Numbered from the stretch's first letter, positions 23,879 through 39,015 are shown. The stretch is 64,000 nucleotides of DNA from Candidatus Falkowbacteria bacterium (GCA_003518055.1 DOZJ01000006.1:201631-265630); one strand, 5' to 3'. Numbers and translations: made by a program. Notes: a model not told the origin generated them from the letters alone.

Positions 23879-23945
23879 TCCTGTCTCTCGTCCCGATTTT
23901 CGCGAAGGGCGGGATGGCGAGAAGCGGGATCAATGTTTTTGAGAT

Positions 23946-25157
23946 ATGCAGCGGATTATTTTTCACATTGACATGGATTCGTATTTTGCCACGCTGGAGC
24001 AGCAGGCTAATCCGTTTTTGCGCGGCAAACCGGTCGGTGTCAGCGGCAAGGAGGATTCCCGAACGGTGATTGTGGCGGCGTCGCGTGAAGCCAAGCAATT
24101 TGGCGTGAAAACAGCAATGAGTTTGTTTGAGGCGCGAAAATTGTGTCCACAGATGTATTTGGTTGAAGGTGATGGGCCGAAATATCGGTTTGTAACCGAT
24201 GAGTTTATTAAAATTTTTAAACGCGTGTCATCACAAGTTGAAATTTATAGCATTGATGAAGCGTTTTTGGATTTGACCGGGTATGTCAATGATTTTAAGG
24301 CGGCGAGAATTAGGGCGCTTTGGATCAAGGAGCAGTTGAAAATCAAGGCGGGTGAGTGGGTCACATGCTCCATTGGGATCGCCAAAAATAAATTGCTGGC
24401 CAAAGTGGCCTCAGATTTGAATAAACCAAATGGATTGGTGGTGATTAACGATACAAATTTATTTAATATTATTGATAAGTTGAAACTAACGGATTTTTGG
24501 GGGCTCGGACCGCGGATCAATCGGCGGCTGGAAGCAATGGGAATTGAAACGGTGAAGAAACTTCGAGCTTATCCGGTTGCCGAGTTGATAAAAGAGTTTG
24601 GGTTGTTTTACGGTCGCAAATTGCATGATATGGTTAGAGGCGAAGATGTCGGATCGGTGGTATCTGACTACAATGAACCAGCGGTGAAGTCTGTTAGCCG
24701 GGCCTATACTTTGGATCGTGATACTTGGGACAAAGGAGAAATTTTTCAGGTGCTGGCGCATTTGTGTTATAAATGCGGTCGAGAACTCAGGCGGAAAAAA
24801 ATCGCCGGCCGAACTTTGGAATATTATTGGCGTTATGATGATTTTACTCATGCCGGTTTTAGATTCACATTAAAAAAGAAGATTGATGATGGGTTGGAGT
24901 TATTCAAAATCGGGCAGGTAAAATTAATCAGATATGATTTGGCCAAAGCGGTGCGTTTGGTTGGCGTTAGGGTAGCCAATTTGGAGCCGGTTAGCGGTCA
25001 GCAGTTATTGTTTACCAATGAACGTAAATGGCAGCGGCTGGGGCCGTTTTTGGACCAAATTAATGACACTTATGGGGAATTAACGATAAAATCAGCTTAT
25101 TTGGTAAAAAAGTCTAGATTAAGAAATAAAATAGGCGGGTTTAAGTATGGAGATTGA
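23946..25157 (+). CDS. dinB: DNA polymerase IV (DinB, Y-family)
   Basis: 403 aa with an N-terminal IFHIDMDSYFATLE motif and Y-family palm, fingers and little-finger organisation. Confidence 0.85.
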   Translation: MQRIIFHIDMDSYFATLEQQANPFLRGKPVGVSGKEDSRTVIVAASREAKQFGVKTAMSLFEARKLCPQMYLVEGDGPKYRFVTDEFIKIFKRVSSQVEIYSIDEAFLDLTGYVNDFKAARIRALWIKEQLKIKAGEWVTCSIGIAKNKLLAKVASDLNKPNGLVVINDTNLFNIIDKLKLTDFWGLGPRINRRLEAMGIETVKKLRAYPVAELIKEFGLFYGRKLHDMVRGEDVGSVVSDYNEPAVKSVSRAYTLDRDTWDKGEIFQVLAHLCYKCGRELRRKKIAGRTLEYYWRYDDFTHAGFRFTLKKKIDDGLELFKIGQVKLIRYDLAKAVRLVGVRVANLEPVSGQQLLFTNERKWQRLGPFLDQINDTYGELTIKSAYLVKKSRLRNKIGGFKYGD

Positions 25158-25162
25158 CAAAA

Positions 25163-25192
25163 ATGGCCAAATTTGTTACAATTTATGGTGCG
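25163..25192 (+). promoter_or_regulatory. promoter TTGACA-N17-TACAAT of the Cys-rich secreted protein gene
   Basis: Consensus -35 and near-consensus -10 hexamers, followed by a GGGGGAGG RBS. Confidence 0.55.
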
Positions 25193-25249
25193 TTTGAACC
25201 TTGAAAAAGACCAACAAAGACAGCAACCCATAAGCCGGGGGAGGCTAAG

Positions 25250-25831
25250 ATGATGCGGAGAGTTGCGATGTCGGTGTTTTTTGCTGTTTTAGTTTTTGTT
25301 ACTTTGTGTGGTAACCGCAGCTGTGTTCCGGTAGAGCCTGAGCAGGTGGTTGGGATTCCTTGTGAGATTAATGATGATTGTGATGATAATAATGAGTGCA
25401 CGGTGGAAACTTGCGTTGCCGGCGAATGTGTTTATGATCTGACGGTCATGGATGGAGAGGTGTGGTTTGGTTCATCACCCTCGATGGGTTTTTACAAAAT
25501 TTGCTGGAATGGCCGCTATGCTGGTTACAACGGTTATTGTCATGTGGGTGAAGATGCGGCGATTTGTTCGGATACAACCATGGAGCTTTACAATTCTGAT
25601 ACGGGTCATTATGAATATTTGTGGGGTGTAGATTATTGTGTCGCTGATGAAGCCGGCAGAGGTTGGTGTCAGGAGTGCCAGCCAGGCACAGCTCTAGATG
25701 ATGGTGTTGATGCCGGGTGTTCGCTGGATTTTCCTCGGTGCACTACGGAAATGATTAGTTTGAACGGTCTTTGGGAGGAAAGCGCTACAGGAACAATATA
25801 CCGGCCTAGGTGGTTTTGCTCTGGTATCTAA
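25250..25831 (+). CDS. secreted cysteine-rich protein (signal peptide)
   Basis: 193 aa with the N-terminal signal MMRRVAMSVFFAVLVFVTLCG and more than 20 Cys in the mature part (CEINDDCDDNNECTVETCVAGECV). GC ~50%. Confidence 0.55.
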   Translation: MMRRVAMSVFFAVLVFVTLCGNRSCVPVEPEQVVGIPCEINDDCDDNNECTVETCVAGECVYDLTVMDGEVWFGSSPSMGFYKICWNGRYAGYNGYCHVGEDAAICSDTTMELYNSDTGHYEYLWGVDYCVADEAGRGWCQECQPGTALDDGVDAGCSLDFPRCTTEMISLNGLWEESATGTIYRPRWFCSGI

Positions 25832-25897
25832 AATATAGAAGTCTAAATCGGCTTCTTTTTTATATGAAAAAACCAGCGTATTACTGGTTTGGGAAAT

Positions 25898-26764
25898 TTA
25901 TTTTTCGAGTTGTTTCTTGGTTCTCATCAAGTGATCACGAAGTTTTTCTAGAGCGGATCTCTGTTCCGGATCACTGGCAGACGAGGTTGGGGGCAGGGTA
26001 ATGTCGGTTACTTCATTCGGGTAGCGAAGCCGCATGGCGACTTGGGTGTCGATTGGCTTAAGTGGAATATTCAGTTGTGGGTGGCGTCCGGGCTGCATGA
26101 ATAATTCGAAATCGCCGTTCGCGTGTTCATAATACCAGAATAGCGGCTGGCCATCCGGAGTGAAGAGTCTCAGATTTGGGTTTAGCTCTACGGTTTCGAT
26201 GGTAATTGGCGGCCGGCTAACCATTTCTTTGGATCGGTTCAGGCTTTTGATTTCAGCTGGGTCGCGAATGACAGGATTACCGGTTTGGGGATCAATTTCC
26301 CACTCGCATGGGACTTCGACATAACTGTCAAGGCGAGCGCTGAAGCATTTTTTCGGTTCTCCGGTTTCGGGATCAAAGAGCAGATTAGCGTCAGCGTAAT
26401 ACATGAAACCGCAAAAGGCCAAATAGGCGGAGCTGCCCAGAATGATGCCAATCAGACGTTTACGTCGGCGGAAAGAAAGTATCATGCCTACGCTGATCAC
26501 GAACAGAATGGCTGGCAGAATGGCGATCATTTTGGCCAGCCATGGATTAAGTGCGGCATGAAGTTCCAAATATTCGGAGATCCACGGAAATACCAAGAAA
26601 AAGGCAATTAGACTGCCGAATTTAAACAGGCTGAATAGCATCAATAGTCCAAAGACAAATAAAATAATACCCCAAATGAGTTTTTTTCGGCTGCGTTTGA
26701 TCTTTGGTGGTTCATCTCGGTTGGATTCGGATTTGATTTCACCAAATGGCTGTGTCATGATCAT
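25898..26764 (-). CDS. membrane protein, family M (cytoplasmic N-terminus, TM helices, extracytoplasmic C-domain)
   Basis: 288 aa, paralogous to the disrupted copy at 34676-35466 (same LIWGxILxxFGLLMLFSLFKFGS and VPCxWEIDPQTGNPVI blocks). Confidence 0.6.
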   Translation of the reverse strand: MIMTQPFGEIKSESNRDEPPKIKRSRKKLIWGIILFVFGLLMLFSLFKFGSLIAFFLVFPWISEYLELHAALNPWLAKMIAILPAILFVISVGMILSFRRRKRLIGIILGSSAYLAFCGFMYYADANLLFDPETGEPKKCFSARLDSYVEVPCEWEIDPQTGNPVIRDPAEIKSLNRSKEMVSRPPITIETVELNPNLRLFTPDGQPLFWYYEHANGDFELFMQPGRHPQLNIPLKPIDTQVAMRLRYPNEVTDITLPPTSSASDPEQRSALEKLRDHLMRTKKQLEK

Positions 26765-26779
26765 CTCCTTGCTGGTGGT

Positions 26780-27175
26780 TTGGAAACGAACAGGTTATGT
26801 ATCATTGTGTGGTTTATGGCGCAATTTGTCAAGTCGCTTTTGACAAGAAGGGTCATTTTTGGTAGGTTAAGGGCAAGGAATCATAGTTTAATCGAGACCT
26901 CAAAATTGAGGGAAAGGGAGGCTCAGATGCTGAGAGTATTGCTCATTGTAGCAGTGGTGGTCTTGATCGCCATCATCTTGGCCGGTGTCGCGTTGATCAG
27001 GGATTATTGGCGGCCGTTGAAGGATAGCAATGGCCAGCCGGTTGAACTTGATTCAAAGCAAAAGTCAAGATTGAAAATTATGATGGGCGCGGCGGCGATC
27101 GCGTTGTTCACGATTTTTCTTTCATCCAAGCATAATTGGGTGAAAAAAATGAAGCGGTCAATGGGCCGAGCGTAA
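26780..27175 (+). CDS. small membrane protein, hypothetical
   Basis: 131 aa with 2 TM helices and a terminator at 27185-27208. Confidence 0.35.
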   Translation: METNRLCIIVWFMAQFVKSLLTRRVIFGRLRARNHSLIETSKLREREAQMLRVLLIVAVVVLIAIILAGVALIRDYWRPLKDSNGQPVELDSKQKSRLKIMMGAAAIALFTIFLSSKHNWVKKMKRSMGRA

Positions 27176-27217
27176 TTATTGTCCAGCAAACTAACAGTTT
27201 GCTTTTTTGATTAAAAA

Positions 27218-27240
27218 AAACTAACAGGTGCTGTTAGTTG
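27218..27240 (-). terminator. terminator family AACTAACA-N-TGTTAGTT (copy for L1)
   Basis: AACTAACAGgtgCTGTTAGTT followed by a T-run on the minus strand. Related hairpins lie at 28542-28567, 30580-30603 and 35545-35568. Confidence 0.6.
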
Positions 27241-27253
27241 TTGTTTTATTCGG

Positions 27254-28465
27254 TCATCGCTTGAAAGGAACCAATGGTAATGCATGAGTCGGACAATGTT
27301 CGGTGGCGCAGTTTCCTTTGAAATCCACATCAGAAATAATAGTTTGGTAGTCACATCTGATGTTTGGGCAAAAACAGTATTTTTTTTGATTTTCTTCTTT
27401 CCATGCTTTCCATTCTGCGACCGATGCAGCCGCTTTTTCTTCTTCTTGGCGTTTTTTTTCTGCCGCCACCTTTATAAACAGTACTGCTAGTTCCAATTGG
27501 CGTATAAATTGTTCTTTGGCTACTCTTTGTCTTTCTAATTCTGCTTCACGCCTTTTTTCATCTTCGATCTGTTTCAAACGTTCAAATTCGATTTGCCGTT
27601 GTCGTTCTTGTTCGATTTGTTTCTGTTTGGCCAGTTCTATTTCATGGAGTTGTGTTTCCGCTTTCTTTTTTTCCAATATACGTAACCTACGGGATTTTTG
27701 GCGGCGTTGTTCGAGTAATTCAGCCCTTTTCTGTTTCTCAAGTTCTTTCTTTTGTTTTAATTCTTCTTCCTGTTTAGATTTAAGCAACTTCTCTTGTACT
27801 TTTTTCTTTTCTTCTGCAAAGATGTATTGATCATAAATTTCATCAAGTTCTTTGAGGTCTGCCTCTTTGGGAGGCGGCAAAATCAGCTTTTGAGTTCGGG
27901 GTTGATATTGGGTTATGACCAGATCCAAACGATCAAGTAGTCGGTCAATTTCCGCGTCTTCCATGCTGTCGAGAAGAATAATGTCTAAATCAAGCTGCTT
28001 TTCCACCCCGACCAGTTCAATTTCACCGGCTTCGGTTTTTTGTGCCGCTTCGATCACGATTTGTTTATATCCATGGGCTTTTTGTATCGCTTCAAGACAA
28101 TTTCTAATCCGCTGATTTTTAATACTTTCATCAAACCCCTGTTGACCAGTATAGCTTTTTTCCTCTTGAATTTCTTTGACGTTTCTTTGAATTTCTGATT
28201 CAAATTTGACGACTGTGCCGCGTAGCGTTTGGGCTTTGGCCGCCAGTTCGGCTTTTAGAGCTTTGACTGTTTGAAGTTTTTCTTCTGAGAGCTGCTTTTT
28301 ACTTTTGGCGTCATGTTGTTGAATATCTTTTGTAGTTTTGTGTACGCCAATTTGTTTCCGATTTGGATTTTTGTTCGGGCTTTCTGATTGTTGATGAGAG
28401 CAGGAAGCAATTATCAGCCATAGAACAGCAATGATTGTAATGCCAAGGTATTGACGGTGGAGCAT
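27254..28465 (-). CDS. lipoprotein L1 of a paralogous family (conserved N-domain, KE/QR-rich coiled coil, Cys-rich C-terminus)
   Basis: 403 aa with an IIASC lipobox. Shares the N-terminal ~200-aa domain (…CLEAIQ…LDLVITxYQP…) with 28562-30505, 30603-32915 and 35568-37634. Its C-terminal CxCPN…HCPTHALPL is shared with L3. Confidence 0.65.
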   Translation of the reverse strand: MLHRQYLGITIIAVLWLIIASCSHQQSESPNKNPNRKQIGVHKTTKDIQQHDAKSKKQLSEEKLQTVKALKAELAAKAQTLRGTVVKFESEIQRNVKEIQEEKSYTGQQGFDESIKNQRIRNCLEAIQKAHGYKQIVIEAAQKTEAGEIELVGVEKQLDLDIILLDSMEDAEIDRLLDRLDLVITQYQPRTQKLILPPPKEADLKELDEIYDQYIFAEEKKKVQEKLLKSKQEEELKQKKELEKQKRAELLEQRRQKSRRLRILEKKKAETQLHEIELAKQKQIEQERQRQIEFERLKQIEDEKRREAELERQRVAKEQFIRQLELAVLFIKVAAEKKRQEEEKAAASVAEWKAWKEENQKKYCFCPNIRCDYQTIISDVDFKGNCATEHCPTHALPLVPFKR

Positions 28466-28541
28466 GGTTCCTCCTTGGGTGTAGTTGTAAATGAACTTTT
28501 CATGATATTTTATATCAAAACTTCTAATTTGTCAATGAAAA

Positions 28542-28567
28542 AACTAACATCGGGTTAAATGTTAGTT
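28542..28567 (-). terminator. terminator family AACTAACA-N-TGTTAGTT (copy for L2; contains the stop codon)
   Basis: AACTAACATcgggttaaATGTTAGTT. On the minus strand it is followed by TTTTTTCATTGACAA, which runs directly into the promoter of L1. Confidence 0.6.
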
Positions 28568-30505
28568 GAGTTGCCGCATATCCCAAATGCAAAATCTCCA
28601 GCCGTCAGATCTCGCGAGAAGGTAACGGCCATCATGACTCCAGTCAAAGTTGGTTTGAATAAGAGGGCCGCCGCAAAGTAAGGCGGCAACAGTTTTTTGA
28701 GTTGAGTAATCTTTTACGTAGTATACGCCATGAGCTTTGGCCATGTTCGCGCTGAGAGCGGGATTTTCGGTGGTGGGATTGAGAAAATAGAGTGGATTGG
28801 TTGGCGACCAAAATTTGAGATCGACAGAATGTTCAGGCAAGGACATGGGTAAAGTTAATGGCGTTTGGGTGTTTTTTTCCGGATCCAAGACAATAATCTT
28901 ATCACCGTTGGCAATCAGTAATTGCTGGCCATGCCACCACATGTGAGTTTTCGCGGTAACAAGCGGTAGACGACTGAGGAGGCTGTTGGTAACCGTATTC
29001 CAGACAGACACTCTGAGGCCTGTTTGATCCTTGACCAGCGTGGCCAATCGATGGTTGGCGTAGTTTAAGCGAACGATTTGGACTTTATTGCATTCAGTGG
29101 CAAACAAAGTCGGATCCGAGGCGTCCGGACATTCATTGAGCTCAACCATGACGGTATTGGTCGTGAAATCAAGCAATCTGATTTTTCCTGATTCTCCGTA
29201 GTAAAAAGATTTTGAATCTTTATCGCATGAAGAATTGGCTCGAAATGAAATTGAAAGATTAGATGCAAATGCCTTACTGTAACCCAGTCTTGAATAACAA
29301 GAGTCAGGAGAAATGCATGATCCCTGATGAACAACATACCCATGGTCTGTCCAGCTGATTAATTTATTCCTGGCGTCAGCGCAGCTTACAGATTCATAAG
29401 CTGTGAAAATGGTTTCCCCAGATTCAATTGCCCAAATCCGAAATGTAGATCTGACTGTATCTGTAGCTGAACATGCCACCTGATCGATAATGGCCAGTCT
29501 TTGATCATCGGTTGACCAGACAACGTCAGTAAGATTTCCGATATAACGTTCTTGAAAAGAGGTGATTATATTTTCAGTGCCGGTTTCGTTAATCAGAATT
29601 TGTGTCGTTGAACTGCCATTGATTAATGCGATATACTTTCCAGAGTAAGAAAATCTGGCGAATCTAAAATGGCCGCCTAGCTGTTCGATGGTGATGTGGA
29701 AAGCCGGCCGAACGACCTTGATCCGCGACAGATCGGCTTGAACTCGTTTTTCTTGTTCGATTCTTCTTTGTTCCTCGAGCTCTTTTTGACGCTGTAAGGC
29801 GGTTTGTTGGTCTTGGAGGTCTTTTTGCCGTTGCAATTCCAATTGGCGTTGTTGGTCTTTGGCCGCTTCTTCCGGTCGAATATAATGGTCGTAGATTTCA
29901 GACAATGGTTTTAGGTCGGTTTTTTCATCGGTGAGGACCAACCTGTTGGAGTCGGGTTGGATGCGAGTGATGACCAAGTCAAGATCAGCCAGAATATTAT
30001 TGATTTCGTCTTCATCCAAGCTATTAAACATGATGGCGTCAAGTCTTAATTTTTTTTCCAAGGTACTGAGTTCAACGGTGCCCGCTTGGGTCAGATGGAT
30101 ATGTTTGTTCACAATTTGAATGTAGGCATTAGCTGTTTGGATCGCTTCGAGACAACCTCGGATTTTTTCATCCTTGATCGCTTGATCAAAACCAATCAAA
30201 CCGGTTCGGCTTTTCTCCGTCTTAATTTCGATAACATTAGCGTTGATTTCAGCATCAATTTGGGTCAGGGTAGCGGCAAGGGTGGTTTCTTTTTGTTGAA
30301 GCACGGATTTGAGCGTTTGAACTTCTTGTAGTTTTTCCGTGGTTAATTCTTGCTTGCTTTTTGTCGCTTTAGCCGCGGGGACAATTTTGACACTTTCGGT
30401 TGGCTTCATTTCGTCGGAATGGTTGGGGTTGGAATTACAGGCGAGGCCGGTCATGATGATTAAAATTCCAAACGCTAGCGTCTCAAAGAAATTTGATGAT
30501 TTCAT
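28562..30505 (-). CDS. lipoprotein L2 (conserved N-domain, coiled coil, PD40/TolB-like beta-propeller repeats)
   Basis: 647 aa with a signal peptide and a Cys at ~22. The N-domain is homologous to L1, L3 and L4. C-terminal repeats of the WSTDDQRLAIID / WSHDGRYLLARSDG type match PD40/WD40-like blades. Confidence 0.65.
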   Translation of the reverse strand: MKSSNFFETLAFGILIIMTGLACNSNPNHSDEMKPTESVKIVPAAKATKSKQELTTEKLQEVQTLKSVLQQKETTLAATLTQIDAEINANVIEIKTEKSRTGLIGFDQAIKDEKIRGCLEAIQTANAYIQIVNKHIHLTQAGTVELSTLEKKLRLDAIMFNSLDEDEINNILADLDLVITRIQPDSNRLVLTDEKTDLKPLSEIYDHYIRPEEAAKDQQRQLELQRQKDLQDQQTALQRQKELEEQRRIEQEKRVQADLSRIKVVRPAFHITIEQLGGHFRFARFSYSGKYIALINGSSTTQILINETGTENIITSFQERYIGNLTDVVWSTDDQRLAIIDQVACSATDTVRSTFRIWAIESGETIFTAYESVSCADARNKLISWTDHGYVVHQGSCISPDSCYSRLGYSKAFASNLSISFRANSSCDKDSKSFYYGESGKIRLLDFTTNTVMVELNECPDASDPTLFATECNKVQIVRLNYANHRLATLVKDQTGLRVSVWNTVTNSLLSRLPLVTAKTHMWWHGQQLLIANGDKIIVLDPEKNTQTPLTLPMSLPEHSVDLKFWSPTNPLYFLNPTTENPALSANMAKAHGVYYVKDYSTQKTVAALLCGGPLIQTNFDWSHDGRYLLARSDGWRFCIWDMRQLN

Positions 30506-30579
30506 GGGTGGTCTCCTGTTTGGTTGTCAAGGGTCATTCAATTAAAGCTACCTCTAATCGCACTCTTTGTCAATGAAAA

Positions 30580-30603
30580 AACTAACATTGGTTGATGTTA
30601 GTT
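30580..30603 (-). terminator. terminator family AACTAACA-N-TGTTAGTT (copy for L3)
   Basis: AACTAACATtggttgATGTTAGTT plus a T-run on the minus strand. Confidence 0.6.
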
Positions 30604-32915
30604 TAGTAAACCATGATTGTTAGAGGAAGGTGATGCTTGGGGCATTTTTTTCTAGAGCACGGAAGAGTTCTCGAGGCATCTCTTGCGAAATCACAACTCT
30701 CATTCGGACAAGTGCAATAATCCCTGTTGTTTGGGTCATCAGGCTCCATTTCACTGTAGTTATTTTCATAATCATCTTTTGTATAACTTTTTTTTGCGTA
30801 TTTCAGGTATTCAGAATATTGTTTTTCATTAAGAAGTGGGATTCCATGCTCTAAACAAGTTTGTTTTGAACACGTATCGAACTTTTTAATATACACAGTG
30901 GTAGCTTCAATTGGACAATAACAGTGAGAACCTTCGGGAATTTTAACTTCTACATATCGTGGTGATGATAATTGAGGATCGACTGGAGTAACTTCTAGGG
31001 GCGGGGTGGTCGGTGCGGTTTCAATTTCAACTTCGGGTTCTTTTGGTTTTTGGGGTGGTGGTGTGAAAGGTGGTGAGTATGGTGGTGAGTAAGTCACATT
31101 CCACAAACAATAATTCCATCCGTTAGTTAATCCGATGATGTGTTTCCCATCTGGACTCCACGATATTTCCCCAGCAATTCTTTGATTGCAGAGTAGAGCG
31201 GCGATGGTGCTTTCTGATTCTATGTCTTTAATATAGTACTTCCCATAAGCCGCCGCTATTTTTTTCGCTAGACCAGTGACTTCTGTCGTCGGACTTAGAA
31301 ATACATAGGGATCTCGAGGCGACCAAGAAATATCGGCGGTAACAAAGAAGCTGGTTTTTTTTAATTCCCATTTTTGGGAGCCCAGTTTGTAGATCTCGCC
31401 ACCGGTGACAATTACAAGAGCATCGCCCCACCACCAGAATTGGGTGTCGGGAACGAGTTTAATCATGGAGTTGATCTTTTCTTTGGTCGTGGTGTCCCAG
31501 ACTGATAGTCTGTATCCTTTTTTGTCTTGAACAAAGGTTACAAGGCGATCGCGTTCATATAGCATCTGGAGCACAACGACTGAACTGCATTCTGTTTTAA
31601 ACAGATTTGGATCTGATTTATCAGGACATTCATTAACTTCAACGGTTTCTTGGCCGGTGTTTAAGTCATACAACTTTACTTTTCCGTCTTTACTATAATA
31701 AAAAGAATGATCATCTTTCCAAAACGTGGAAGAAGCTCGGAATGAATGTTTGCCGATTCTTTCTCCAGTATCGCTAAGAATGTTCACATGACAATTGTAA
31801 CCAGCACTATCTCCATAAATTACAATGTTTATTTTATTCCAACCAAGAAGCTGGGGAGTACAACCGGAATAGTCAAGCGAAACGTTAACGGAAGTATAAT
31901 CACGTTGATCCACCGACCAAACTCTAAATGTTTGATCTACACAATTTCCTGATAATACGGCGATGGTTTTGTCATCCGGAGACCAAGCGACATCATATAA
32001 GGCGTGAAGTTTATGAGCCCTTTCTGCTGGCACAGGGATAGGGATTTCGGTTGTTTCGGGTGGATCTTTGCTAAAATCTTCAATATAGAGTTTTCTTTGG
32101 TCATTACTTGTACCATATAGTAAGACTAGTGGTTTTGAGTGTGCCCATAGAACACGAGTCACTGCAGCATCCGCACCTTGAATCGTTTTGTATAAAGTGG
32201 GTTCAATTATCGGCATTTCTTGAAGTTGTTGCTTGGATTCTTCTTGGTGTTCAAGTTCTACTTGTCTTTGTCGCTCTTTTCCTCGTTCTTCTCGCCCAAT
32301 ATATTGTTCATAAATATCAGGCAGTGGCTGGCGGTCAATATCTTCCTCGGTAACGATTGATTCCACAGCATTTGGGCCTACGCGATCGATAACTAGATTT
32401 AGATCGGTGATGAGATCATCGAGTTTGGCTTCTTCCAGCCCTTCGAGATAGATAACGCCAAGTTCAGTTTGTTTCTCTTCTCCTTTTAAGTCTACTAACC
32501 CAGCTTCGGTGATTTGGGCGTGTTTGGTATAAGATTGTTTGTAGGCGTGGGCTGTCTGTATGGCTTCAAGGCAGTGACTAATAGAGACTTGTTGCATGGA
32601 CTGTTCAAAGCCGGTAATGCCGGCGCGGCTTTGTTCAGTTTTGATTTCAGCTACGTTAGCGGTGATTTTCGCATCAAACTTAGCAAGTGTGGTTTGTAAA
32701 ACGGTTTTTTTCTGTTGCAGTGCAACGGAGAGATCTTTTATTGCCTGTAGTTTTTCTTGATACAAGAGAACTTTGCTTTTTTTATCAATGGGTTTCGGAG
32801 TGTAGCGAATTACTACTTCATCCGGAGGCGGAGGTACCGGAGTTTCAGTCTTGTTGCAGGCGGCAAAAATCATGATGGTAGCTAGGAAAAAACAAAAGAT
32901 GGGTTTAGATCTCAT
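30603..32915 (-). CDS. lipoprotein L3 (conserved N-domain, beta-propeller, Pro-rich linker, Cys-rich C-terminus)
   Basis: 770 aa with an IFAAC lipobox. PD40-like WSPDDKTIAVLSG / WSPDGKHIIGLTNG blades, a PPYSPPFTPPPQKPKEPE linker, and a C-terminal CxC…HHLPL module related to the L1 C-terminus. Confidence 0.65.
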   Translation of the reverse strand: MRSKPIFCFFLATIMIFAACNKTETPVPPPPDEVVIRYTPKPIDKKSKVLLYQEKLQAIKDLSVALQQKKTVLQTTLAKFDAKITANVAEIKTEQSRAGITGFEQSMQQVSISHCLEAIQTAHAYKQSYTKHAQITEAGLVDLKGEEKQTELGVIYLEGLEEAKLDDLITDLNLVIDRVGPNAVESIVTEEDIDRQPLPDIYEQYIGREERGKERQRQVELEHQEESKQQLQEMPIIEPTLYKTIQGADAAVTRVLWAHSKPLVLLYGTSNDQRKLYIEDFSKDPPETTEIPIPVPAERAHKLHALYDVAWSPDDKTIAVLSGNCVDQTFRVWSVDQRDYTSVNVSLDYSGCTPQLLGWNKINIVIYGDSAGYNCHVNILSDTGERIGKHSFRASSTFWKDDHSFYYSKDGKVKLYDLNTGQETVEVNECPDKSDPNLFKTECSSVVVLQMLYERDRLVTFVQDKKGYRLSVWDTTTKEKINSMIKLVPDTQFWWWGDALVIVTGGEIYKLGSQKWELKKTSFFVTADISWSPRDPYVFLSPTTEVTGLAKKIAAAYGKYYIKDIESESTIAALLCNQRIAGEISWSPDGKHIIGLTNGWNYCLWNVTYSPPYSPPFTPPPQKPKEPEVEIETAPTTPPLEVTPVDPQLSSPRYVEVKIPEGSHCYCPIEATTVYIKKFDTCSKQTCLEHGIPLLNEKQYSEYLKYAKKSYTKDDYENNYSEMEPDDPNNRDYCTCPNESCDFARDASRTLPCSRKKCPKHHLPLTIMVY

Positions 32916-33198
32916 GGATTTTCTCCTGTTGGGGTTGTCAAAGGGCTTTCAATTAAGGGTAGTGGTTATGGGGTGTTTTGTCAATCAAAAAACAGGTTTC
33001 TTTGTTGGTTGAAGTAATTAATTATAAATACATAATATTGATCTAAAAATTTGTTTATATGGTTGACGGAAAAATAAGTTTGTGTTAATGTATTCTGTCA
33101 AACATAAACGGAGGGTGCGTGAGAGCGAATTTTGTTTTTGCGTTTGAAATTGTCCGGGTAAAAACCAATCAACTTCAAATTCAACCAAGGAGGGCAGC

Positions 33199-33684
33199 AT
33201 GAGGCTGATGGTTAAATTTCAGCAGGCGGTTGGATGTGAGGCGGCTCAGCAGATTCTGGCGCCGTTTATGGCTCGGTTGGCTTTGATTGAGTCAAAGACG
33301 TATCAACTATTGATGTTTAATGAAGTCTCAGTGGAAGAATTGCTACGAATGTTTTTTTCTCAGATGAAGCAGTCAGAATCAAAGGTGCATTTTTTCCCCA
33401 GTTCAAAAAGTGTTATTCTGTCGGCCAAGAATCAGGCTCCTGATGTGGTGGTTACCACGATTATTAGCGAATTGACTGAGCAGCAGCTGCTTTTGCTTAA
33501 AGTTGTTTATGATTTGTACCAGTTGAATCAAGATGAAAAGGTTTTTCTCGTTTTTGTTAACGCCTTGAGCGATTTTTGGCGAGCCAAAGGAGATGGCGGT
33601 TTTTATCAGATGATTGGGGTGGATGCGGATGATGTGTGGCGCTTTTGGCAGGAATTTAGAGACCGGCAAATGCGAATGAGGTAA
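33199..33684 (+). CDS. hypothetical protein (161 aa)
   Basis: AAGGAGG RBS, a TTGACG promoter-like element upstream, and a terminator at 33755-33778. Confidence 0.4.
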   Translation: MRLMVKFQQAVGCEAAQQILAPFMARLALIESKTYQLLMFNEVSVEELLRMFFSQMKQSESKVHFFPSSKSVILSAKNQAPDVVVTTIISELTEQQLLLLKVVYDLYQLNQDEKVFLVFVNALSDFWRAKGDGGFYQMIGVDADDVWRFWQEFRDRQMRMR

Positions 33685-33893
33685 AGAATTTATGGTGGAA
33701 AAAAATAATGAAAGTATCAGTCAATTGAGTTGGTTTGAATTGATAATAATCCGTAAGAGCTAAACAAGCTCTTTTTTGGTGGGAAAAAAGTGCGAGATAA
33801 AAATTGAAAGAAGTATCAACTGGTAATAAAACGTGCTTGACAAAAATAACGCTTATTGATAGTATAAACACATAATATTCATTTGAAACTTAT

Positions 33894-34010
33894 ATGCATA
33901 AAATTAGACCGAGTGAACGCGCAAGCAAATTTCTCAATCCGGTAAAGAAGGACAAAAAGTCCAAAAAGGCGAAAATCAGGGACCGGAAGAAAAAGACTAA
34001 AATGCGATAA
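33894..34010 (+). CDS. possible small lysine-rich peptide (38 aa), or an untranslated short transcript
   Basis: A TTGACA-N17-TAGTAT promoter at ~33837-33866 and a terminator CAGCTGaaaaGCTG plus T8 at 34019-34040 bracket a ~170-nt unit. No SD in front of the ATG, so translation is uncertain. Confidence 0.2.
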   Translation: MHKIRPSERASKFLNPVKKDKKSKKAKIRDRKKKTKMR

Positions 34011-34159
34011 AAAAAATTCAGCTGAAAAGCTGTTTTTTTGTTTTTAGCCAAAAATTTCAGGCTTTCAACTGATGCGAGGTACTGTTTATGGTTTATGCCC
34101 AACGGTTTTTACAAAAAGGAAAAAATTTTGTATAATTTATCCATAATATATTAAAGATT

Positions 34160-34633
34160 ATGACTATACTTTTTAAGGAGAGGCAGCTGATGCAGCCGAT
34201 TTTTACGGTTGTTAATCTCGGGGTCATCGGGTTCCTGTTGTATTCCATTTTAGTTTACAATGAACAGTACAGTCGAGGTTCGTTGATTTTTTTGGCGGCC
34301 GCGCTATGCGTCTTATCGTTTACCATGATTAATTTCGCGGTCTTAAACATTAGAGTGACGGAAACAGCGTTGGATTTTGGTTTTGGATTATTCAAACGAT
34401 CATTTTTTATCAAAAATTTGGTCGAGGTGGAAATCCAGAAATACGAATTTCGTCGTTTTGGCGGTTATGGTATCCGAAAATCATTAACCGGCGAAACCGG
34501 TTTTGTCGCTCGCGGCGGAAGCGGAGTATATTTTCGCGATACTAATTCCGGAAAAAAAGTCTATCTCAGCAGCGATAAACCGGAAGAATTGTATACCAAA
34601 TTGATTGAAAATGGTGCGATGGAAAAAAGGTAG
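34160..34633 (+). CDS. membrane protein with a putative bacterial PH-like (bPH/YdbT-like) domain
   Basis: 157 aa with two N-terminal TM helices then a ~90-aa soluble domain. Assignment is by architecture only. Confidence 0.3.
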   Translation: MTILFKERQLMQPIFTVVNLGVIGFLLYSILVYNEQYSRGSLIFLAAALCVLSFTMINFAVLNIRVTETALDFGFGLFKRSFFIKNLVEVEIQKYEFRRFGGYGIRKSLTGETGFVARGGSGVYFRDTNSGKKVYLSSDKPEELYTKLIENGAMEKR

Positions 34634-34675
34634 TCTTTATATAAAAAGTAAAAGACCGCATTGTTATGCTGTTTT

Positions 34676-35466
34676 TTAATAGGGGCCATGTTTGACTTCT
34701 TGTTGTTTAATTTGCCAATAATTGCGAAGGTCTTCTAACGCCGTGCCATACTCTGAACAGGGACCTGCTTCGGCTTGTTCGGGATCAGGTGGCGAGAATG
34801 TGGCTTTGGGCAGTTTCTTGTATCTTTCCGGAAAGTAAATGCGTTTAACGATTTCGGGTGTGATTGGTTTTAGTTCAATTTGAAATTGAGGATCAAACCC
34901 CGGTTCGCTCGCAAAGTAAAAATCATCGGTTGCTCGTTCTGAATACCAGATTAGTGGTTGGCCGTCATTACCAAAATAGCGGGTGTTTTGAGTTGTTTTG
35001 ATTGACACGATTTCGTGTGATACGGGTTTTTTAAACTGTTGCGCTCTGGCAATTGTTTTGATGTTATCAGGATCTTTGATAACAGGATTGCCGGTCTGAG
35101 GATCAATTTCCCACGAGCAAGGAACTTCGATATAACCGACACTACCCATAATGACACAGATCAGGTGTTTACGTCGGCGAAGGAGAAAATCATGCCTACG
35201 CTGATGATAAAAAAGATAGCCGGCAGAAAAGCGATGATTTTGGCTAGCCAAGTATTGATTGCGGCATGAACTTCCATGTATTCAGCGAACCAAGGGAAGA
35301 CCAAGAAGAAAGCGATAATACTGCCGAATTTAAACAGGCTGAATAACATCAGGAGGCCAAAGGCTACTAAAATAAAACCCCAAATGAGTTTTTTCCGATT
35401 GTGCTTGGTCACCGGTGTTTCAGTTTTGTTGGATTCGGATTTGATCGCAGCAAATGGTTTTGTCAT
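34676..35466 (-). pseudogene. disrupted paralog of membrane protein family M (frameshift plus internal deletion)
   Basis: Two overlapping ORFs (35161-35466 and 34676-35251) together align with 25898-26764. About 37 codons are missing relative to the intact copy and the frame changes near 35160-35250. The 5' region, including the upstream motif, is duplicated. Confidence 0.6.
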
Positions 35467-35544
35467 GATCAGCTCCTCGCCGGAGGTTTGGAAATGAACA
35501 GGTTATATATCGTTGTACATTGTTTTGTGTCTAATGTCAACAAA

Positions 35545-35568
35545 AAACTAACATCTTTGGTGTTAGTT
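35545..35568 (-). terminator. terminator family AACTAACA-N-TGTTAGTT (copy for L4)
   Basis: AACTAACATctttggtGTTAGTT hairpin plus a T-run on the minus strand. Confidence 0.55.
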
Positions 35569-37634
35569 TAATCGAGTAACGAGGTGTCCCAAACAGCAAC
35601 TTTTAGTTCGCGGTTAATTCCTATCAGGTAGCGGTTGGTTGGATCCCAGTGGAAGTTGACGGCATCATCTTTGATAAATCCATCGGGGAAAAAGTCAAAT
35701 GGAGCTTTCAAAACAGCTAAGAATTGTTTTGGTTGCAAGTGATCTTTGAAGAGCCTATAAGTTTTACAAATATACGTTGGAGTTGGTTCAAGCTGTAGTC
35801 CTGAAGATTTGACAGGTGTCGTTTTTTTATAAGGTGGTTGCTCGAGAACAACAAAATAATTTTTTGACGGACGTGAAGTAATCCGGCCACTATTATATAA
35901 CATCCACCAGATGTCAATAATATTTACAACCGGTGCGTCTGTAGTAAATGAAGTTTGCGTTTTATCGCTCCAGTTCCAAAAAGATATTCTGTACGTTGTT
36001 TTAGAGAAGTCATCATTTTTGGATTCAGATAAAACTACCAAGGTTCCGTTGTCATACATAATTTGGCTAATATGCAAAAGATCTTGGCACTGTTTGAATA
36101 AATTTTTGGGATCTGACTTCCAAGGGCATTCATCGAATCCAACTTCCTTTCGTGTTGCGAGGTTGTACTCATAAAAATTATTTGCTCCAACGTGATAAAT
36201 AATTGTACCATTACCCGTTGCAACAGTCTGGTCCACATTGGTTAAATATGCTTTTCGTCGGAAGGCATACTCGTGAGATTCAGAAACATCTATGATATGT
36301 ATGGGGAAATCATTAAAAAACTTACCACCAGAAGCGCCAAATCGGTGTATTACGATTGTATCATTGGTCCAGTTAATGATGTGTTGCGCCTTAAAACAGC
36401 AGTTTGGGTCCCACCAGCAATCACGCTCACTTTGTTGGACGTTAACTCCCTTTAATATTTCACGAAAAGTTGCCTCTCTTTGAGTAAACGACCAAACCTT
36501 GAGACTGCTTTCACAATCATCATCCTTATGTTCAGTTAATATGGCAAGACCGGTATTGTCTGGTGACCACATAACATCTTTATATGATTCTGCTCTTGGA
36601 GTTAAACGGCTGAAAGGGCTATAAGCTTTTTTTTCGGCTGCATCATAAATAAAAATTCTGATAGGGGAAAAAAAAGCAAAGAGACTTGGTTTCCCGGACC
36701 AAATAACCTTGAACTCAGATAAGAATTCTTTGGCGTTACTTTCGGGGAATGGTTTATTGAGTTCAAATGTATACAGCGGTTGCAGACACAAAAAGTCGAA
36801 ATCAGGGTCTTTTGTCGTGAATTTAGCTTTTAATTGCTGTAGTACTTGTTTTTTATATTCAGCCTTTCTGGCCTCATCTTGCTGTTTTTGTTCCTGAGAT
36901 TTTTTTTGTTCCTGTTGTCTTTTTTCTTCTTCAGTCCGGATATACTTTTGGTAGATTTCATCAAGACTTTTGGTTTTGGCGTCTTGCGGGCGTGGCAACT
37001 TCAGCATTTCAGCTTGGGGTTGATATTCGGTGATGACAATATTCAGTTTGGCGATTAGATCGTCAACGCTGTCAACGTCCATTGAGTCCAAGAGTTCAAT
37101 ATCCAGTTTTAGTCTTTTTTCCAGACCATTCAATTCACTTCGTCCAAGTTCAGTTTGGCTTAGCGCTTCGGTTACGATTTGGATGTAGGCATCGGCCACG
37201 CTAATGGTTTCAAGGCAAAATTGAATATCTTTGTTAGCGATTGTTTTTTCAAGTACGGTTTGTGAGGTTTCACTTTTTTTTGCCATAATTTCATTGACAT
37301 TGGTTTGAATGTCATCAGTGAATTTTTGGATTTTTTGGCGCAATTCCGTGGCGCGATCGGATAGGCTTGCTTTCAGAAGTTGAACCTCAGATAATTTTTG
37401 ACGAGTCAAGTCCTGTTTGCTTTTAATTTCTTTGGTGGGCGCCGGTGGACTGATGACAATTACTTTTTGCGGTTGATTGGTTGGAGTTGGTGAGTTTGAA
37501 TGTTGATTGCAAGAACAGAAGGTCAGGATAATGATCGTCAGCAAGGCAAATTTTCGGTGTTTCATGGTTGGTCTCCTAGTTTGGTTGTCAATGGGCATTC
37601 CTTTATGTTTACATCGAATTGATAATTTTGTCAA
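35568..37634 (-). CDS. lipoprotein L4 (conserved N-domain, coiled coil, beta-propeller-like C-domain)
   Basis: 688 aa with signal peptide LLTIIILTFCSC. The N-domain is homologous to L1-L3, followed by a KE/Q-rich segment and C-terminal MWSPDNTGLAILTEH-type blades. Confidence 0.65.
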   Translation of the reverse strand: MTKLSIRCKHKGMPIDNQTRRPTMKHRKFALLTIIILTFCSCNQHSNSPTPTNQPQKVIVISPPAPTKEIKSKQDLTRQKLSEVQLLKASLSDRATELRQKIQKFTDDIQTNVNEIMAKKSETSQTVLEKTIANKDIQFCLETISVADAYIQIVTEALSQTELGRSELNGLEKRLKLDIELLDSMDVDSVDDLIAKLNIVITEYQPQAEMLKLPRPQDAKTKSLDEIYQKYIRTEEEKRQQEQKKSQEQKQQDEARKAEYKKQVLQQLKAKFTTKDPDFDFLCLQPLYTFELNKPFPESNAKEFLSEFKVIWSGKPSLFAFFSPIRIFIYDAAEKKAYSPFSRLTPRAESYKDVMWSPDNTGLAILTEHKDDDCESSLKVWSFTQREATFREILKGVNVQQSERDCWWDPNCCFKAQHIINWTNDTIVIHRFGASGGKFFNDFPIHIIDVSESHEYAFRRKAYLTNVDQTVATGNGTIIYHVGANNFYEYNLATRKEVGFDECPWKSDPKNLFKQCQDLLHISQIMYDNGTLVVLSESKNDDFSKTTYRISFWNWSDKTQTSFTTDAPVVNIIDIWWMLYNSGRITSRPSKNYFVVLEQPPYKKTTPVKSSGLQLEPTPTYICKTYRLFKDHLQPKQFLAVLKAPFDFFPDGFIKDDAVNFHWDPTNRYLIGINRELKVAVWDTSLLD

Positions 37635-37718
37635 ATGATCAGGGATGAAAAGTCTGTAGGGATTGTATTTACCTTACTCGAATAAATATGCTATAATTAT
37701 GAATGAATTAAAATCATT

Positions 37719-38909
37719 TTGGTTATGAAATTACGTTCAATCAAAGAAATAAGAAGCTTGGCGGGGAAAACGGTTTTGGTCCGGGTTGATTTTAATGTTG
37801 ACATAAAAAATGGCCGAGTGTCAGAGAAATTTCGGTTAAAACAAGCGGTGGAAACCGTCAAATATTTATTAAAACACGATTGCCGGGTGATTGTCATGGC
37901 TCATTTGGGGCGTCCCGGAGGAAAGTTGAACCATGATTATAGTTTGGCGCCGTTGGTAAAAGAATGGCGGCAGCTGATCTCTCCGTTTGGGGTGAAGTTT
38001 TATCCCGGGAAAATCGATGCCGGTTTGGTTGGGCGGGTTAGTGCTGATAAGTCACGATTGATAATGTTGGATAATTTGCGGTTTAATGCCGGTGAAGAAA
38101 AAAATGATCGGAAGTTTGCTGAAATGTTGGCGTCGATGGTGGATTTTTATGTTAATGAGGCATTTTCGGTTAGTCATCGAGAGGCGGCGTCGGTCGTGGC
38201 TATTACCAAATTATTGCCCAGTTACGCTGGATTAAATCTGATGGATGAAGTTAATTTTTTAAGCCGGGCCGCTGATCCAAAGAAGCCGGCAATGGCTTTG
38301 ATCGGTGGAATTAAGATCGGGTCTAAATTTGGCGTGATTGATACATTTGTGAAAAAGTACGATGTGGTGGCGGTCGGCGGCGGGATTGCCAATACGTTTT
38401 TTTACGCTCAAGGTTGTTCCGTCGGCAAGTCAGTGGTTGATAAAAAATGTTTGGGGAAAATTAAAAAATTAAGCAAGAAAAAAATATTGCTGCCGCTGGA
38501 TGTGATTGTAACCGACGTCAAGACAAAAACCAAAAAAAGATATCATAAGTTGAGCTGGGGAAAAGATATTTGCGAGCCGGACGAAATGATCGCTGATGTA
38601 GGTCCGGAAACCATCCAAATGATTACAAAGATTTTAGCCGGAAAAAAGAGCATTGTTTGGAGCGGAGTTTTTGGCGATACATCAATTCCGGAATTCAAAA
38701 AAGGGTCTAAACAAATTATGACTGCCGTGGCCGATCAGGTGAAAAAAAAGAATGTGGTCGGGGTAATCGGCGGTGGTTCGATGATTGATTTGGTGTTCGA
38801 AATGAAAAAAAATACCAGTTTGGATTTTATTTCCACCGGCGGCGGGGCGATGCTGGAATTTTTGGAGCAAAAAACTTTGGTCGGGTTAAAATCGTTGATA
38901 AAAAAATAA
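37719..38909 (+). CDS. pgk: phosphoglycerate kinase
   Basis: 396 aa with RVDFNVDIKNGRVSE…MAHLGRPGG N-domain motifs and a C-terminal nucleotide-binding domain. Confidence 0.9.
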   Translation: MVMKLRSIKEIRSLAGKTVLVRVDFNVDIKNGRVSEKFRLKQAVETVKYLLKHDCRVIVMAHLGRPGGKLNHDYSLAPLVKEWRQLISPFGVKFYPGKIDAGLVGRVSADKSRLIMLDNLRFNAGEEKNDRKFAEMLASMVDFYVNEAFSVSHREAASVVAITKLLPSYAGLNLMDEVNFLSRAADPKKPAMALIGGIKIGSKFGVIDTFVKKYDVVAVGGGIANTFFYAQGCSVGKSVVDKKCLGKIKKLSKKKILLPLDVIVTDVKTKTKKRYHKLSWGKDICEPDEMIADVGPETIQMITKILAGKKSIVWSGVFGDTSIPEFKKGSKQIMTAVADQVKKKNVVGVIGGGSMIDLVFEMKKNTSLDFISTGGGAMLEFLEQKTLVGLKSLIKK

Positions 38910-39015
38910 ACAAATATAAAAATTAATGGCGGGTGCGGTTGATTGACGCGGATAGCGATGCAGGCTTCGGCCCTTTGTCGTTCATCTCGTTAATCGGCTA
39001 AACCCGTGAAATAGT

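What the first reader, a model, noticed from the sequence alone, without database searches (positions are those of the whole stretch)
25163..37700. Cassette-like expansion of TolB/PD40-propeller lipoproteins with a shared N-terminal domain, paired with paralogous membrane proteins
Four minus-strand genes (27254-28465, 28562-30505, 30603-32915, 35568-37634) encode lipoproteins. They share a ~200-aa N-terminal helical domain (conserved …CLEAIQ.A.AY.QIV… and …LDLVIT.YQP…) followed by a KE/QR-rich coiled coil, then diverge into PD40/WD40-like beta-propeller blades and/or a Cys-rich CxCPN…HxLPL module. Each copy has its own TTGACA promoter, a conserved 5' UTR (TTGACAACCAAACAGGAGACCACC-ATG type) and its own AACTAACA-N-TGTTAGTT terminator hairpin, so whole expression cassettes were duplicated. 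Two copies of a membrane-protein family (25898-26764 intact; 34676-35466 frameshifted and deleted) and a strongly expressed secreted Cys-rich protein (25250-25831) sit at the cluster borders. The architecture resembles a modular, fast-evolving cell-surface system (adhesion, host or partner contact, or envelope scaffolding) that I cannot assign to a described family.
Basis: partly seen in the sequence, partly recalled or inferred. Interest (0 to 1): 0.75.

Follow-up and report, generated by a model that had tools for sequence, protein, structure and literature searches.

The report
Stalked propeller lipoproteins with membrane partner
A tiny uncultured bacterium (Candidatus Falkowbacteria) carries four old gene copies for membrane-tethered proteins that share an unnamed helical base and hold an eight-bladed propeller or a small cysteine knob on a stalk, always next to an equally uncharacterised membrane protein; this looks like an undescribed cell-surface system, but its function is unknown.

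Summary
Four minus-strand genes encode lipoproteins that share a ~165-aa N-domain (42-50% identity, HMM E 1e-46 to 1e-55). Each has its own TTGACA promoter, a conserved leader and a hairpin terminator found nowhere else in the 64 kb. The interpretation needs correcting.

- **Propeller:** it is an eight-bladed WD40/BamB-like fold, not TolB/PD40.
- **Age:** the paralogues are old, with orthologues in syntenic PGK-DinB loci of other Candidatus Falkowbacteria. They are not a fast-evolving expansion.
- **Cys-rich secreted gene:** it has no homologue in any related locus fetched.

New findings:

- **N-domain:** it is a confidently predicted three-helix bundle with no Pfam, NCBIfam or PDB relative. 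It defines a family of 249 clusters and lies next to a predicted membrane anchor in the 146 hits mapped.
- **Heads:** they are swappable (WD40, LRR-like, Ank, TPR, SLT, Cys knob, or none).
- **Membrane protein:** the M1 family sits beside 1-6 N-domain genes in all nine distinct loci examined. One is a 4-nt-overlap pair in a Desulfobacterota relative, and one protein may be a fusion.

Best reading: a membrane platform plus a set of stalked surface lipoproteins with different binding heads. The architecture is well supported. Function (adhesion or envelope contact) is inferred.

The parts
27254..28465 (-). Lipoprotein A (403 aa): signal peptide with lipobox Cys22, N-domain at residues 54-219, a ~145-aa KE-rich coiled coil, and one C-terminal Cys module (CFCPNIRC...C...HCPTH).
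   Evidence: The closest N-domain among fetched loci is the L002 274-aa protein P0002, 55% identical, with the same architecture.
28562..30505 (-). Lipoprotein B (647 aa): lipobox, N-domain at 49-213, a ~50-aa coiled coil, and a beta-propeller.
30603..32915 (-). Lipoprotein C (770 aa): lipobox, N-domain at 46-210, a short helix at 198-233, an eight-bladed propeller at 236-606, a Pro-rich linker and two Cys modules.
35568..37565 (-). Lipoprotein D (665 aa from ATG 37565): lipobox, N-domain at 48-213, coiled coil, propeller.
   Evidence: The start was chosen from the conserved leader and Shine-Dalgarno site.
25898..26764 (-). M1 (288 aa), a polytopic membrane protein with a basic N-terminus and three or four hydrophobic segments. 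Its ~165-aa C-terminal domain carries an invariant Cys pair and a C.W...P.TGNPVI.D motif. It is the conserved partner of N-domain proteins.
   Evidence: Identical over the aligned 99% of the query to the NCBI protein DF272_06275 (286 aa) of Candidatus Falkowbacteria.
34676..35466 (-). M2, a decayed second copy of the membrane protein gene, with a 1-nt frameshift and a ~35-aa deletion. Its ectodomain is 68% identical to the L002 membrane protein and only 35% identical to M1.
26927..27175 (+). An 82-aa two-TM protein encoded between A and M1. It is conserved at the same place in L002. Whether it belongs to the system is uncertain.
   Evidence: A 10-nt deletion variant is seen in another sample (L010).
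27219..27239 (-). Terminator hairpin AACTAACA-N5-TGTTAGTT plus T-run, after gene A.
28542..28567 (-). Terminator hairpin after gene B, overlapping its stop codon. The promoter of A follows directly.
   Evidence: family D7
30580..30603 (-). Terminator hairpin after gene C. The promoter of B follows directly.
35546..35568 (-). Terminator hairpin after gene D. The promoter of M2 follows directly.
28466..28540 (-). Promoter (TTGACA-17-TAAAAT) and leader of A (TTTACAAC...AAGGAGG).
30506..30579 (-). Promoter and leader of B, with the leader motif TTGACAACCAAAC just before the Shine-Dalgarno site.
   Evidence: (family D2)
32916..32990 (-). Promoter and leader of C, with the leader motif TTGACAACC.
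37566..37640 (-). Promoter and leader of D, with the leader motif TTGACAACC.

Best explanation
The locus encodes a membrane-anchored 'platform plus stalked heads' system of a Candidatus Falkowbacteria (CPR/Patescibacteria) cell.

Shown:
- Four separately transcribed lipoproteins begin with a lipid-anchor signal.
- Next comes a ~165-aa three-helix-bundle N-domain from an unnamed family.
- Next comes a coiled-coil stalk of ~25 to ~145 residues.
- They end in a head, which is an eight-bladed WD40/BamB-like propeller carrying a conserved Cys pair, a small CxC...C...CxxH knob, or both.
- A polytopic membrane protein (M1 family) is encoded beside N-domain genes in every distinct locus examined.

Inferred:
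- The N-domain is the common membrane-proximal base. It may dock on M1, or assemble with it, at the outer face of the cytoplasmic membrane.
- The stalk lifts the heads about 5-30 nm away, into or beyond the wall.
- The heads bind different protein or surface ligands. Candidates are host or partner cells, the cell's own envelope layers, or secreted factors.
- The shared leader motif suggests common regulation.
For: - Paralogy and lipobox.
- The N-domain family has 249 clusters at E<=1e-3 among 1.84 billion representatives. In the 146 hits mapped, the domain lies next to a predicted lipobox, signal peptide or 1-6 TM helices where an anchor could be called.
- Its partners are WD40, Ank, TPR, SLT or nothing, LRR-like repeats and Cys-rich modules.
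- Domain order is swapped in the L012 606-aa protein.
- Full-length C model: bundle, single helix, then a confident propeller.
- The Cys pair ECP...x10...CP is invariant in 20 sequences, which fits an extracytoplasmic location.
- M1 association: the M1 family has 15 clusters, mostly Falkowbacteria or Patescibacteria. N-domain genes lie adjacent in the window, L002, L010, L011/12, L014, L015, L016 (4-nt overlap, Candidatus Magnetomoraceae), L019 (6 N-domain genes) and L020.
- Possible fusion of an M1-like TM region to an N-domain in P0029: hhalign probability 85%, E 6e-6.
- Conserved PGK...DinB position.
- Leader motif: 16 of 32 strict matches in ~215 kb lie 10-60 nt upstream of N-domain genes.
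Against: - No experimental data exist for any member. All named members seen are annotated 'hypothetical protein', apart from a small IMG cluster labelled as a histidine kinase.
- The L007/L008 Falkowbacteria contigs (12 kb) hold two N-domain genes and no M1 homologue.
- The remote N-domain loci L017 and L018 also lack M1. M1 is therefore not obligatory for the domain.
- The P0029 fusion rests on an 82-column match in hydrophobic sequence.
- Lipidation, surface exposure and the ligands are inferred only.
- The tail of C that holds the Cys modules was modelled with low confidence.
Confidence: 0.55

Rival explanations
1. Envelope spacer or tether. The lipoproteins would be structural struts, in the way Lpp sets periplasm width or S-layer anchors work. 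They would connect the cytoplasmic membrane to the peptidoglycan or S-layer, with the propeller or knob gripping the outer layer and M1 anchoring the base.
For: The layout of lipid anchor, rigid helical bundle and coiled coil. Stable synteny and old paralogues, which fit housekeeping rather than arms-race proteins. One family member carries an SLT lytic transglycosylase domain. Cell-wall genes (PBP2, Mur ligase, MltG/YceG, UppP) lie elsewhere in the window.
Against: Stalk lengths differ about six-fold within one genome (~25 to ~145 residues), which is odd for a uniform spacer. No known wall-binding domain (LysM, SLH, PG_binding, OmpA) was found. The heads are generic protein-interaction modules.
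Confidence: 0.25
2. An FtsX-EnvC/PcsB-like control module. M1 would be a membrane transducer whose outer domain grips the long helical N-domain. This would position or activate whatever is fused to it, for example wall-remodelling factors recruited by the propellers.
For: The long helical hairpin shape of the N-domain. A weak NCBIfam match of one remote member to the PcsB coiled-coil region (E 0.004, far below cut-off). One SLT-fused member. Tight M1/N-domain gene linkage.
Against: No FtsE-like ATPase or any ATPase was seen in the gene tables of the clusters. M1 has no FtsX/MacB Pfam or NCBIfam match. Nearly all heads are non-catalytic.
Confidence: 0.1
3. Bona fide TolB / Tol-Pal components, the label used in the finding's title.
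For: A single PD40 repeat match in C (E 2.4e-5, residues 578-594). The proteins are exported and carry propellers.
Against: Eight blades rather than six, and TolB is absent from the top structural matches. There is no TolB_N domain and no TolB NCBIfam hit. These are lipoproteins, whereas TolB is soluble. No TolQ, TolR, TolA or Pal was found among the window ORFs scanned. The organism is a CPR bacterium.
Confidence: 0.02
4. A rapidly switching antigenic or phase-variation family (Mycoplasma vlp/vsp-like), or mobile cassettes (integron-like or DGR-diversified).
For: A conserved 5' UTR and N-terminus with divergent C-termini, one promoter per gene, and an inverted repeat at each 3' end. A bAvd-like gene lies 4 kb away.
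Against: The paralogues are 42-50% identical and have orthologues across species. No integrase or reverse transcriptase was found among the window ORFs scanned. No template/variable repeat pairs appear in the direct-repeat scan. No simple-sequence tracts were noticed in the promoters on reading. The hairpins are 21-26 nt with T-runs, so they look like terminators. The populations sampled repeatedly are near-identical: L002 to L006 at 99.98-100%, and L010 at 99.5% to the window.
Confidence: 0.05

Closest known systems
BamB/YfgL and mycobacterial BamB-like Rv3035 (lipoprotein or exported eight-bladed propellers)
   Different: No sequence-family match to PQQ/BamB models. BamB has no three-helix base or coiled-coil stalk, and it works in the outer-membrane BAM complex. 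No BAM component appeared among the window ORFs scanned. The propellers here have a conserved Cys pair and score best against WD40 models.
Eukaryote-type eight-bladed WD40 propellers (Sif2, TBL1XR1, NLE1/Rsa4, ODA16)
   Different: Sequence identity is 13-16%. Those proteins are cytosolic or nuclear. The similarity is at the fold level only.
TolB (Tol-Pal system)
   Same: An exported beta-propeller protein of the bacterial envelope. One PD40-motif hit occurs in protein C.
   Different: TolB has a six-bladed propeller plus a TolB_N domain, is soluble, and is encoded with tolQRA-pal. None of these features is present here.
Mycoplasma variable lipoprotein gene families (vlp, vsp, vsa)
   Same: A multigene lipoprotein family in a wall-poor, reduced-genome bacterium. 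It has a conserved 5' UTR and N-terminus, divergent C-terminal parts, and one promoter per gene. This comparison rests on established knowledge of those families.
   Different: No switching device (poly-tract or invertase) was seen. The paralogues are old, and their structured heads are conserved across species.
Stalk-and-head attachment proteins (for example paramyxovirus HN/G, which has an N-terminal anchor, a helical stalk and a propeller head; and coiled-coil adhesins)
   Same: The overall design of a membrane anchor, a helical stalk and a beta-propeller head. This is an analogy from general knowledge.
   Different: There is no homology. The blade number, oligomeric state and ligands here are different or unknown.

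Membership tests
TolB | N-terminal TolB_N alpha/beta domain (PF04052) | tested here: not met
   No Pfam hit. The N-terminal part is a three-helix bundle.
TolB | Six-bladed PD40 propeller | tested here: not met
TolB | Encoded with tolQ-tolR-tolA-pal | tested here: not met
   No MotA_ExbB, ExbD, TolA or OmpA-like hits among the window ORFs scanned or in the gene tables of related loci.
Beta-propeller, eight-bladed WD40-like (fold level) | A closed propeller of eight four-stranded blades | tested here: met
BamB/YfgL | Sequence membership (PQQ-like repeats, BamB NCBIfam/TIGR model) and a BAM-complex context | tested here: not met
   No such Pfam or NCBIfam hits. No BamA or other BAM component among the window ORFs scanned. 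Only the fold is similar.
Bacterial lipoproteins (Lgt/LspA substrates) | A signal peptide ending in a lipobox with an invariant Cys | tested here: met
   A Cys at position 19-23 follows a hydrophobic stretch in A-D. The Cys column is invariant in 20 homologues.
Bacterial lipoproteins (Lgt/LspA substrates) | Actual acylation and cleavage | not testable with these tools
   This needs biochemistry. The presence of lgt and lspA in this genome was not checked.
Integron gene cassettes | IntI integrase, attC sites of about 60-140 nt, promoterless cassettes | tested here: not met
   No integrase among the window ORFs scanned. The hairpins are 21-26 nt with a T-run. Every gene has its own promoter.
DGR-diversified target proteins | A reverse transcriptase plus a template/variable repeat pair | tested here: not met
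   Only a bAvd-like/23S_rRNA_IVP gene at 20610-20981. No RT was found, and no TR/VR-type direct repeats appear in 23000-40000.
Known anti-phage defence systems | A match to PADLOC models | tested here: not met
   No hits for 8 cluster proteins.
New N-domain family (unnamed) | A ~165-aa three-helix bundle with conserved ...L..IQ.A.AY... and ...D......L...(V/I)I....P.A..L... motifs, placed next to a membrane anchor | tested here: met

The most novel reading that the evidence does not exclude
The N-domain proteins and M1 may form a previously undescribed envelope apparatus of Falkowbacteria-type CPR bacteria, with outliers in Desulfobacterota. In this reading, one polytopic membrane protein organises a changeable set of stalked lipoproteins whose heads mediate attachment to host or partner cells. 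That would make it a candidate contact organelle for an episymbiotic lifestyle. The family-specific leader motif (TTGACAACCAA) would be the operator of a dedicated regulon.
Probability: 0.2. Interest if true: 0.75.

Novelty: new variant of a known kind. Interest (0 to 1): 0.55.

Why it matters
CPR/Patescibacteria make up a large share of bacterial diversity, and many live attached to other cells. Very little is known about their surface machinery, and most of their envelope proteins are 'hypothetical'.

This locus defines two unnamed protein families that are genetically linked across lineages. One is a membrane-proximal three-helix-bundle domain, used as a universal base for swappable binding heads. 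The other is a polytopic partner protein.

The locus gives concrete, testable candidates for how such cells display binding modules at set distances from the membrane. It also shows a conserved cis-regulatory leader that could reveal how the set is controlled. If the link to cell-cell contact were shown, the system would be a handle on host recognition in an uncultured phylum.

Tried and rejected
1. A word-indexed search with the whole C protein returned only itself. Low-complexity coiled-coil words probably saturated the candidate list. The exhaustive HMMER search with the N-domain alignment solved this.
2. Scanning genome and metagenome collections by back-translated patterns gave only 1 and 3 loci. 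The 60-sequence alignment was too diverse to derive patterns.
3. The afdb50 fold library was unavailable.
5. The Rfam scan of 25000-38000 found nothing credible for the leader or the hairpins.
6. PADLOC and NCBIfam were negative for the cluster proteins.
7. I considered the hairpin as a dimeric transcription-factor operator. I rejected this because the half-site spacing varies from 5 to 10 nt and a T-run follows. I also considered an attC site and rejected it (too short, no integrase).
8. Exact stem conservation across the window, L002 and L007 first looked family-wide. More distant loci use other stems, each repeated within its own locus. The hairpins therefore travel with the genes or are homogenised, and are not a universal signal.
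9. Strain-variability test: the L002, L005 and L006 contigs are 99.98-100% identical, so they give no information on population variability.
10. Literature searches found nothing on this family.


Full report
**Source and setting**

The window is part of JGI metagenome contig Ga0103682_10000014 (173.7 kb). The organism is a Candidatus Falkowbacteria-type CPR bacterium.
- The membrane protein M1 matches the NCBI protein DF272_06275 of Candidatus Falkowbacteria at 100% identity over 99% of its length.
- The closest genome locus found is a Falkowbacteria MAG.
- Other family members are annotated as Falkowbacteria hypothetical proteins.

The rest of the window is ordinary chromosomal content: MraW, TGT, PilM-like, SPFH, PBP2, Mur ligase, LexA, DinB, PGK, enolase, two iPGM genes, Fpg, UppP, MltG/YceG, MetRS and TatD. 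No integrase or reverse transcriptase was found among the ORFs scanned.

**Check of the observation**

The four minus-strand ORFs exist. After a signal peptide ending in a lipobox Cys, they share a ~165-aa N-domain that is 42-50% identical. HMM E-values are 1e-46 to 1e-55.

The C-terminal parts then diverge.
- A has a ~145-aa KE-rich coil and one Cys module.
- B and D have a short coil and a propeller.
- C has a very short coil, a propeller, a Pro-rich linker and two Cys modules.

The hairpin AACTAACA-N5-10-TGTTAGTT occurs four times in 64 kb against 0.01 expected. All four copies sit at or just after the stop codons of the four genes. Three are followed by a TTGACA -35 box.

Exact TTGACAACC occurs three times, only in the B, C and D leaders. 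The 75-nt promoter and leader regions are 53-70% identical, while N-domain coding DNA is 47-57% identical. The regulatory DNA is therefore at least as conserved as the best-conserved coding part. Duplication of whole expression units is supported.

Two coordinate corrections follow.
- D starts at ATG 37565, because the conserved leader lies inside the longer TTG ORF.
- C starts at 32915, because the public call at M15 removes the signal peptide.

M1 is intact. M2 has a 1-nt frameshift and a ~35-aa deletion.

**The N-domain**

No Pfam, NCBIfam, PADLOC or PDB-sequence match exists.

An exhaustive HMMER search of 1.84 billion representatives found 249 clusters at E<=1e-3 and 66 at E<=1e-10. In the 146 hits mapped, the domain lies next to a predicted membrane anchor where one could be called: a lipobox, a signal peptide, or one to six TM helices.

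What is fused to it varies: WD40 propellers, ankyrin repeats, TPR, an SLT domain, or nothing. Other members carry LRR-like repeats or several kinds of Cys-rich tails. In one Falkowbacteria protein the order is reversed, with the propeller first and the N-domain last.

It is therefore a new membrane-proximal helical-bundle module, not a diverged member of a known family as far as these tools can see.

**The heads**

The full-length model of C shows the bundle, one helix (198-233) and a confident propeller (236-606, about 31 strands). The tail with the Cys modules is unreliable.

TolB is absent from the lists. A Cys pair in a propeller loop (ECP...x10...CP) is invariant in 20 homologues, which fits an oxidising, extracytoplasmic location.

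The Cys module has the pattern CxC-(x2-4)-[C]-x11-17-C-x4-5-C-x2-H. Whether it is a zinc ribbon or a disulfide knot cannot be decided here.

**The membrane partner**

A profile of three M1 homologues found 15 clusters. Nearly all are Falkowbacteria or Patescibacteria, and one is from Candidatus Magnetomoraceae.

I scanned every fetched locus with HMMs for both families. All nine distinct M1 loci hold one to six N-domain genes next to M1.
- the window, L002 and L010
- L011/12 (4 N-domain genes)
- L014 (4 genes)
- L015 (4 genes)
- L019 (6 genes)
- L020 (4 genes, in a different genomic context)
- L016, where the N-domain gene overlaps the M1 gene by 4 nt in a distant phylum

One N-domain protein (P0029) has an N-terminal TM region resembling that of M1 (hhalign probability 85%, E 6e-6). 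This may be a fusion, but the match lies in hydrophobic sequence.

There are exceptions. The 12-kb L007/L008 contigs and the remote loci L017 and L018 have N-domain genes without M1.

**Evolution of the locus**

The cluster sits between PGK and DinB in the window, L002, L011/12 and L019. In some lineages a [NiFe]-hydrogenase operon is inserted beside it.

Copy number and head types differ between genomes: 3, 4, 4 and 6 genes. In a neighbour-joining tree of N-domains (no support values):
- A pairs with the L002 274-aa protein, which has the same N-domain plus Cys architecture.
- B and C are sisters, next to the L007 741-aa protein.
- The L002 657-aa propeller protein pairs with the L007 435-aa Cys-module protein, which hints at head exchange.

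M2's ectodomain is the orthologue of the L002 membrane protein (68% identity), while M1's ectodomain is a divergent type (35%). Their TM regions, in contrast, are 74% identical. The window organism has therefore kept the divergent copy and is losing the ancestral one.

The Cys-rich secreted gene (25250-25831) and ORF 33199-33684 have no homologue in any related locus. They are not part of the system. The 157-aa gene (34160-34633) is a conserved neighbour that belongs to the hydrogenase-side genes.

**Regulatory DNA**

Within each genome the hairpins after the paralogues share stems. The window, L002 and L007 all use AACTAACA. L012, L014, L015 and L019 use other stems, each repeated within its locus. 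They look like ordinary intrinsic terminators that were copied with the genes or homogenised.

The leader motif yTTGACAAC(C/A)AA, about 20 nt before the start codon, is more notable. It is conserved in most independently transcribed N-domain genes of Falkowbacteria-like loci. Sixteen of 32 strict matches in ~215 kb lie 10-60 nt upstream of N-domain genes. It cannot be a -35 box at that distance from the ATG. It is absent from the M1 leaders. Rfam has nothing for it. It suggests a common regulator.

**Interpretation**

The best-supported reading is a membrane platform (M1) plus a set of stalked lipoproteins. These share a docking or base domain and expose different protein-binding heads at different heights. 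The stalks of ~25-145 residues would be roughly 4-22 nm as helix, plus a ~7-nm bundle.

What is shown: the architecture, the family structure and the gene linkage. What is inferred: the docking, the surface exposure and the ligands.

Rivals are an envelope strut or tether role, and an FtsX-EnvC-like control module. Bona fide TolB, integron cassettes, DGR targets and Mycoplasma-style switching families were tested and are not supported.

**Verdict**

The finding is not an expansion of a TolB family but a member of an undescribed, conserved two-family envelope system of a CPR lineage.

It is a new variant of a known kind (modular anchored surface proteins). It is of moderate interest, with a real chance of being important for understanding CPR cell contacts.

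Noticed in passing
window 26927-27175 (+): An 82-aa two-TM protein is encoded on the opposite strand between lipoprotein A and M1. It is conserved at the same spot in L002 (13069-13314). Another sample (L010) carries a 10-nt deletion inside it.
   Followed up: partly
window 30522-30530, 32933-32941, 37583-37591; also leaders in L002, L007, L012-L015, L019: A family-specific leader motif yTTGACAAC(C/A)AA lies about 20 nt upstream of the start codon of N-domain genes. It is conserved across genomes whose proteins are only 30-45% identical. It sits too close to the ATG to be a -35 box, so it may be an operator or an RNA element.
   Followed up: partly
window 52405-52977 (+): A Translin-family protein (PF01997, E 1.3e-22), a family that is mainly eukaryotic and archaeal, is encoded in this CPR genome.
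   Followed up: no
window 20610-20981 (+) and 21024-21626 (+): A 23S_rRNA_IVP/bAvd-like four-helix protein lies directly upstream of LexA. In L002 the same family flanks LexA, and a bAvd-like gene also lies in the L011/L012 neighbourhood. No reverse transcriptase is nearby.
   Followed up: partly
window 43471-45045 and 45091-46668 (+): Two tandem genes for cofactor-independent phosphoglycerate mutase lie next to enolase and PGK. The duplication is also present in L002.
   Followed up: no
window 22765-23812 (-): Three consecutive small (98-105 aa) Gly/Ile-rich membrane-protein ORFs lie just upstream of DinB. They look like paralogues.
   Followed up: no
whole window: GC skew is unusually strong and uniform, at +0.2 to +0.3 per 2 kb. 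It dips to about +0.1 over the minus-strand lipoprotein genes. Nearly all other genes are on the + strand.
   Followed up: no
L011/L012 11230-17005; L014, L015, L019: In related genomes a [NiFe]-hydrogenase operon lies between the M1 cluster and DinB. The window and L002 lack it but keep the 157/169-aa membrane gene (window 34160-34633) that sits inside that operon elsewhere.
   Followed up: partly
L006 5505-7465: The orthologue of the L002 657-aa lipoprotein gene is split into 484 + 170 aa by a single-base indel in one sample. This is either a sequencing error or gene decay, like M2 in the window.
   Followed up: partly
L020 7173-7988: In a more distant Falkowbacteria genome, a transglutaminase-core protein is encoded immediately upstream of the M1 homologue, with four N-domain genes around it.
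   Followed up: no
L016-L018 (remote N-domain proteins): In non-CPR relatives the N-domain is followed by ~24-residue LRR-like repeats (L..L.P..A..L..W.G..L.L.GL). In L017 and L018 these genes occur as a large TM-anchored gene plus a small secreted N-domain-only gene.
   Followed up: partly
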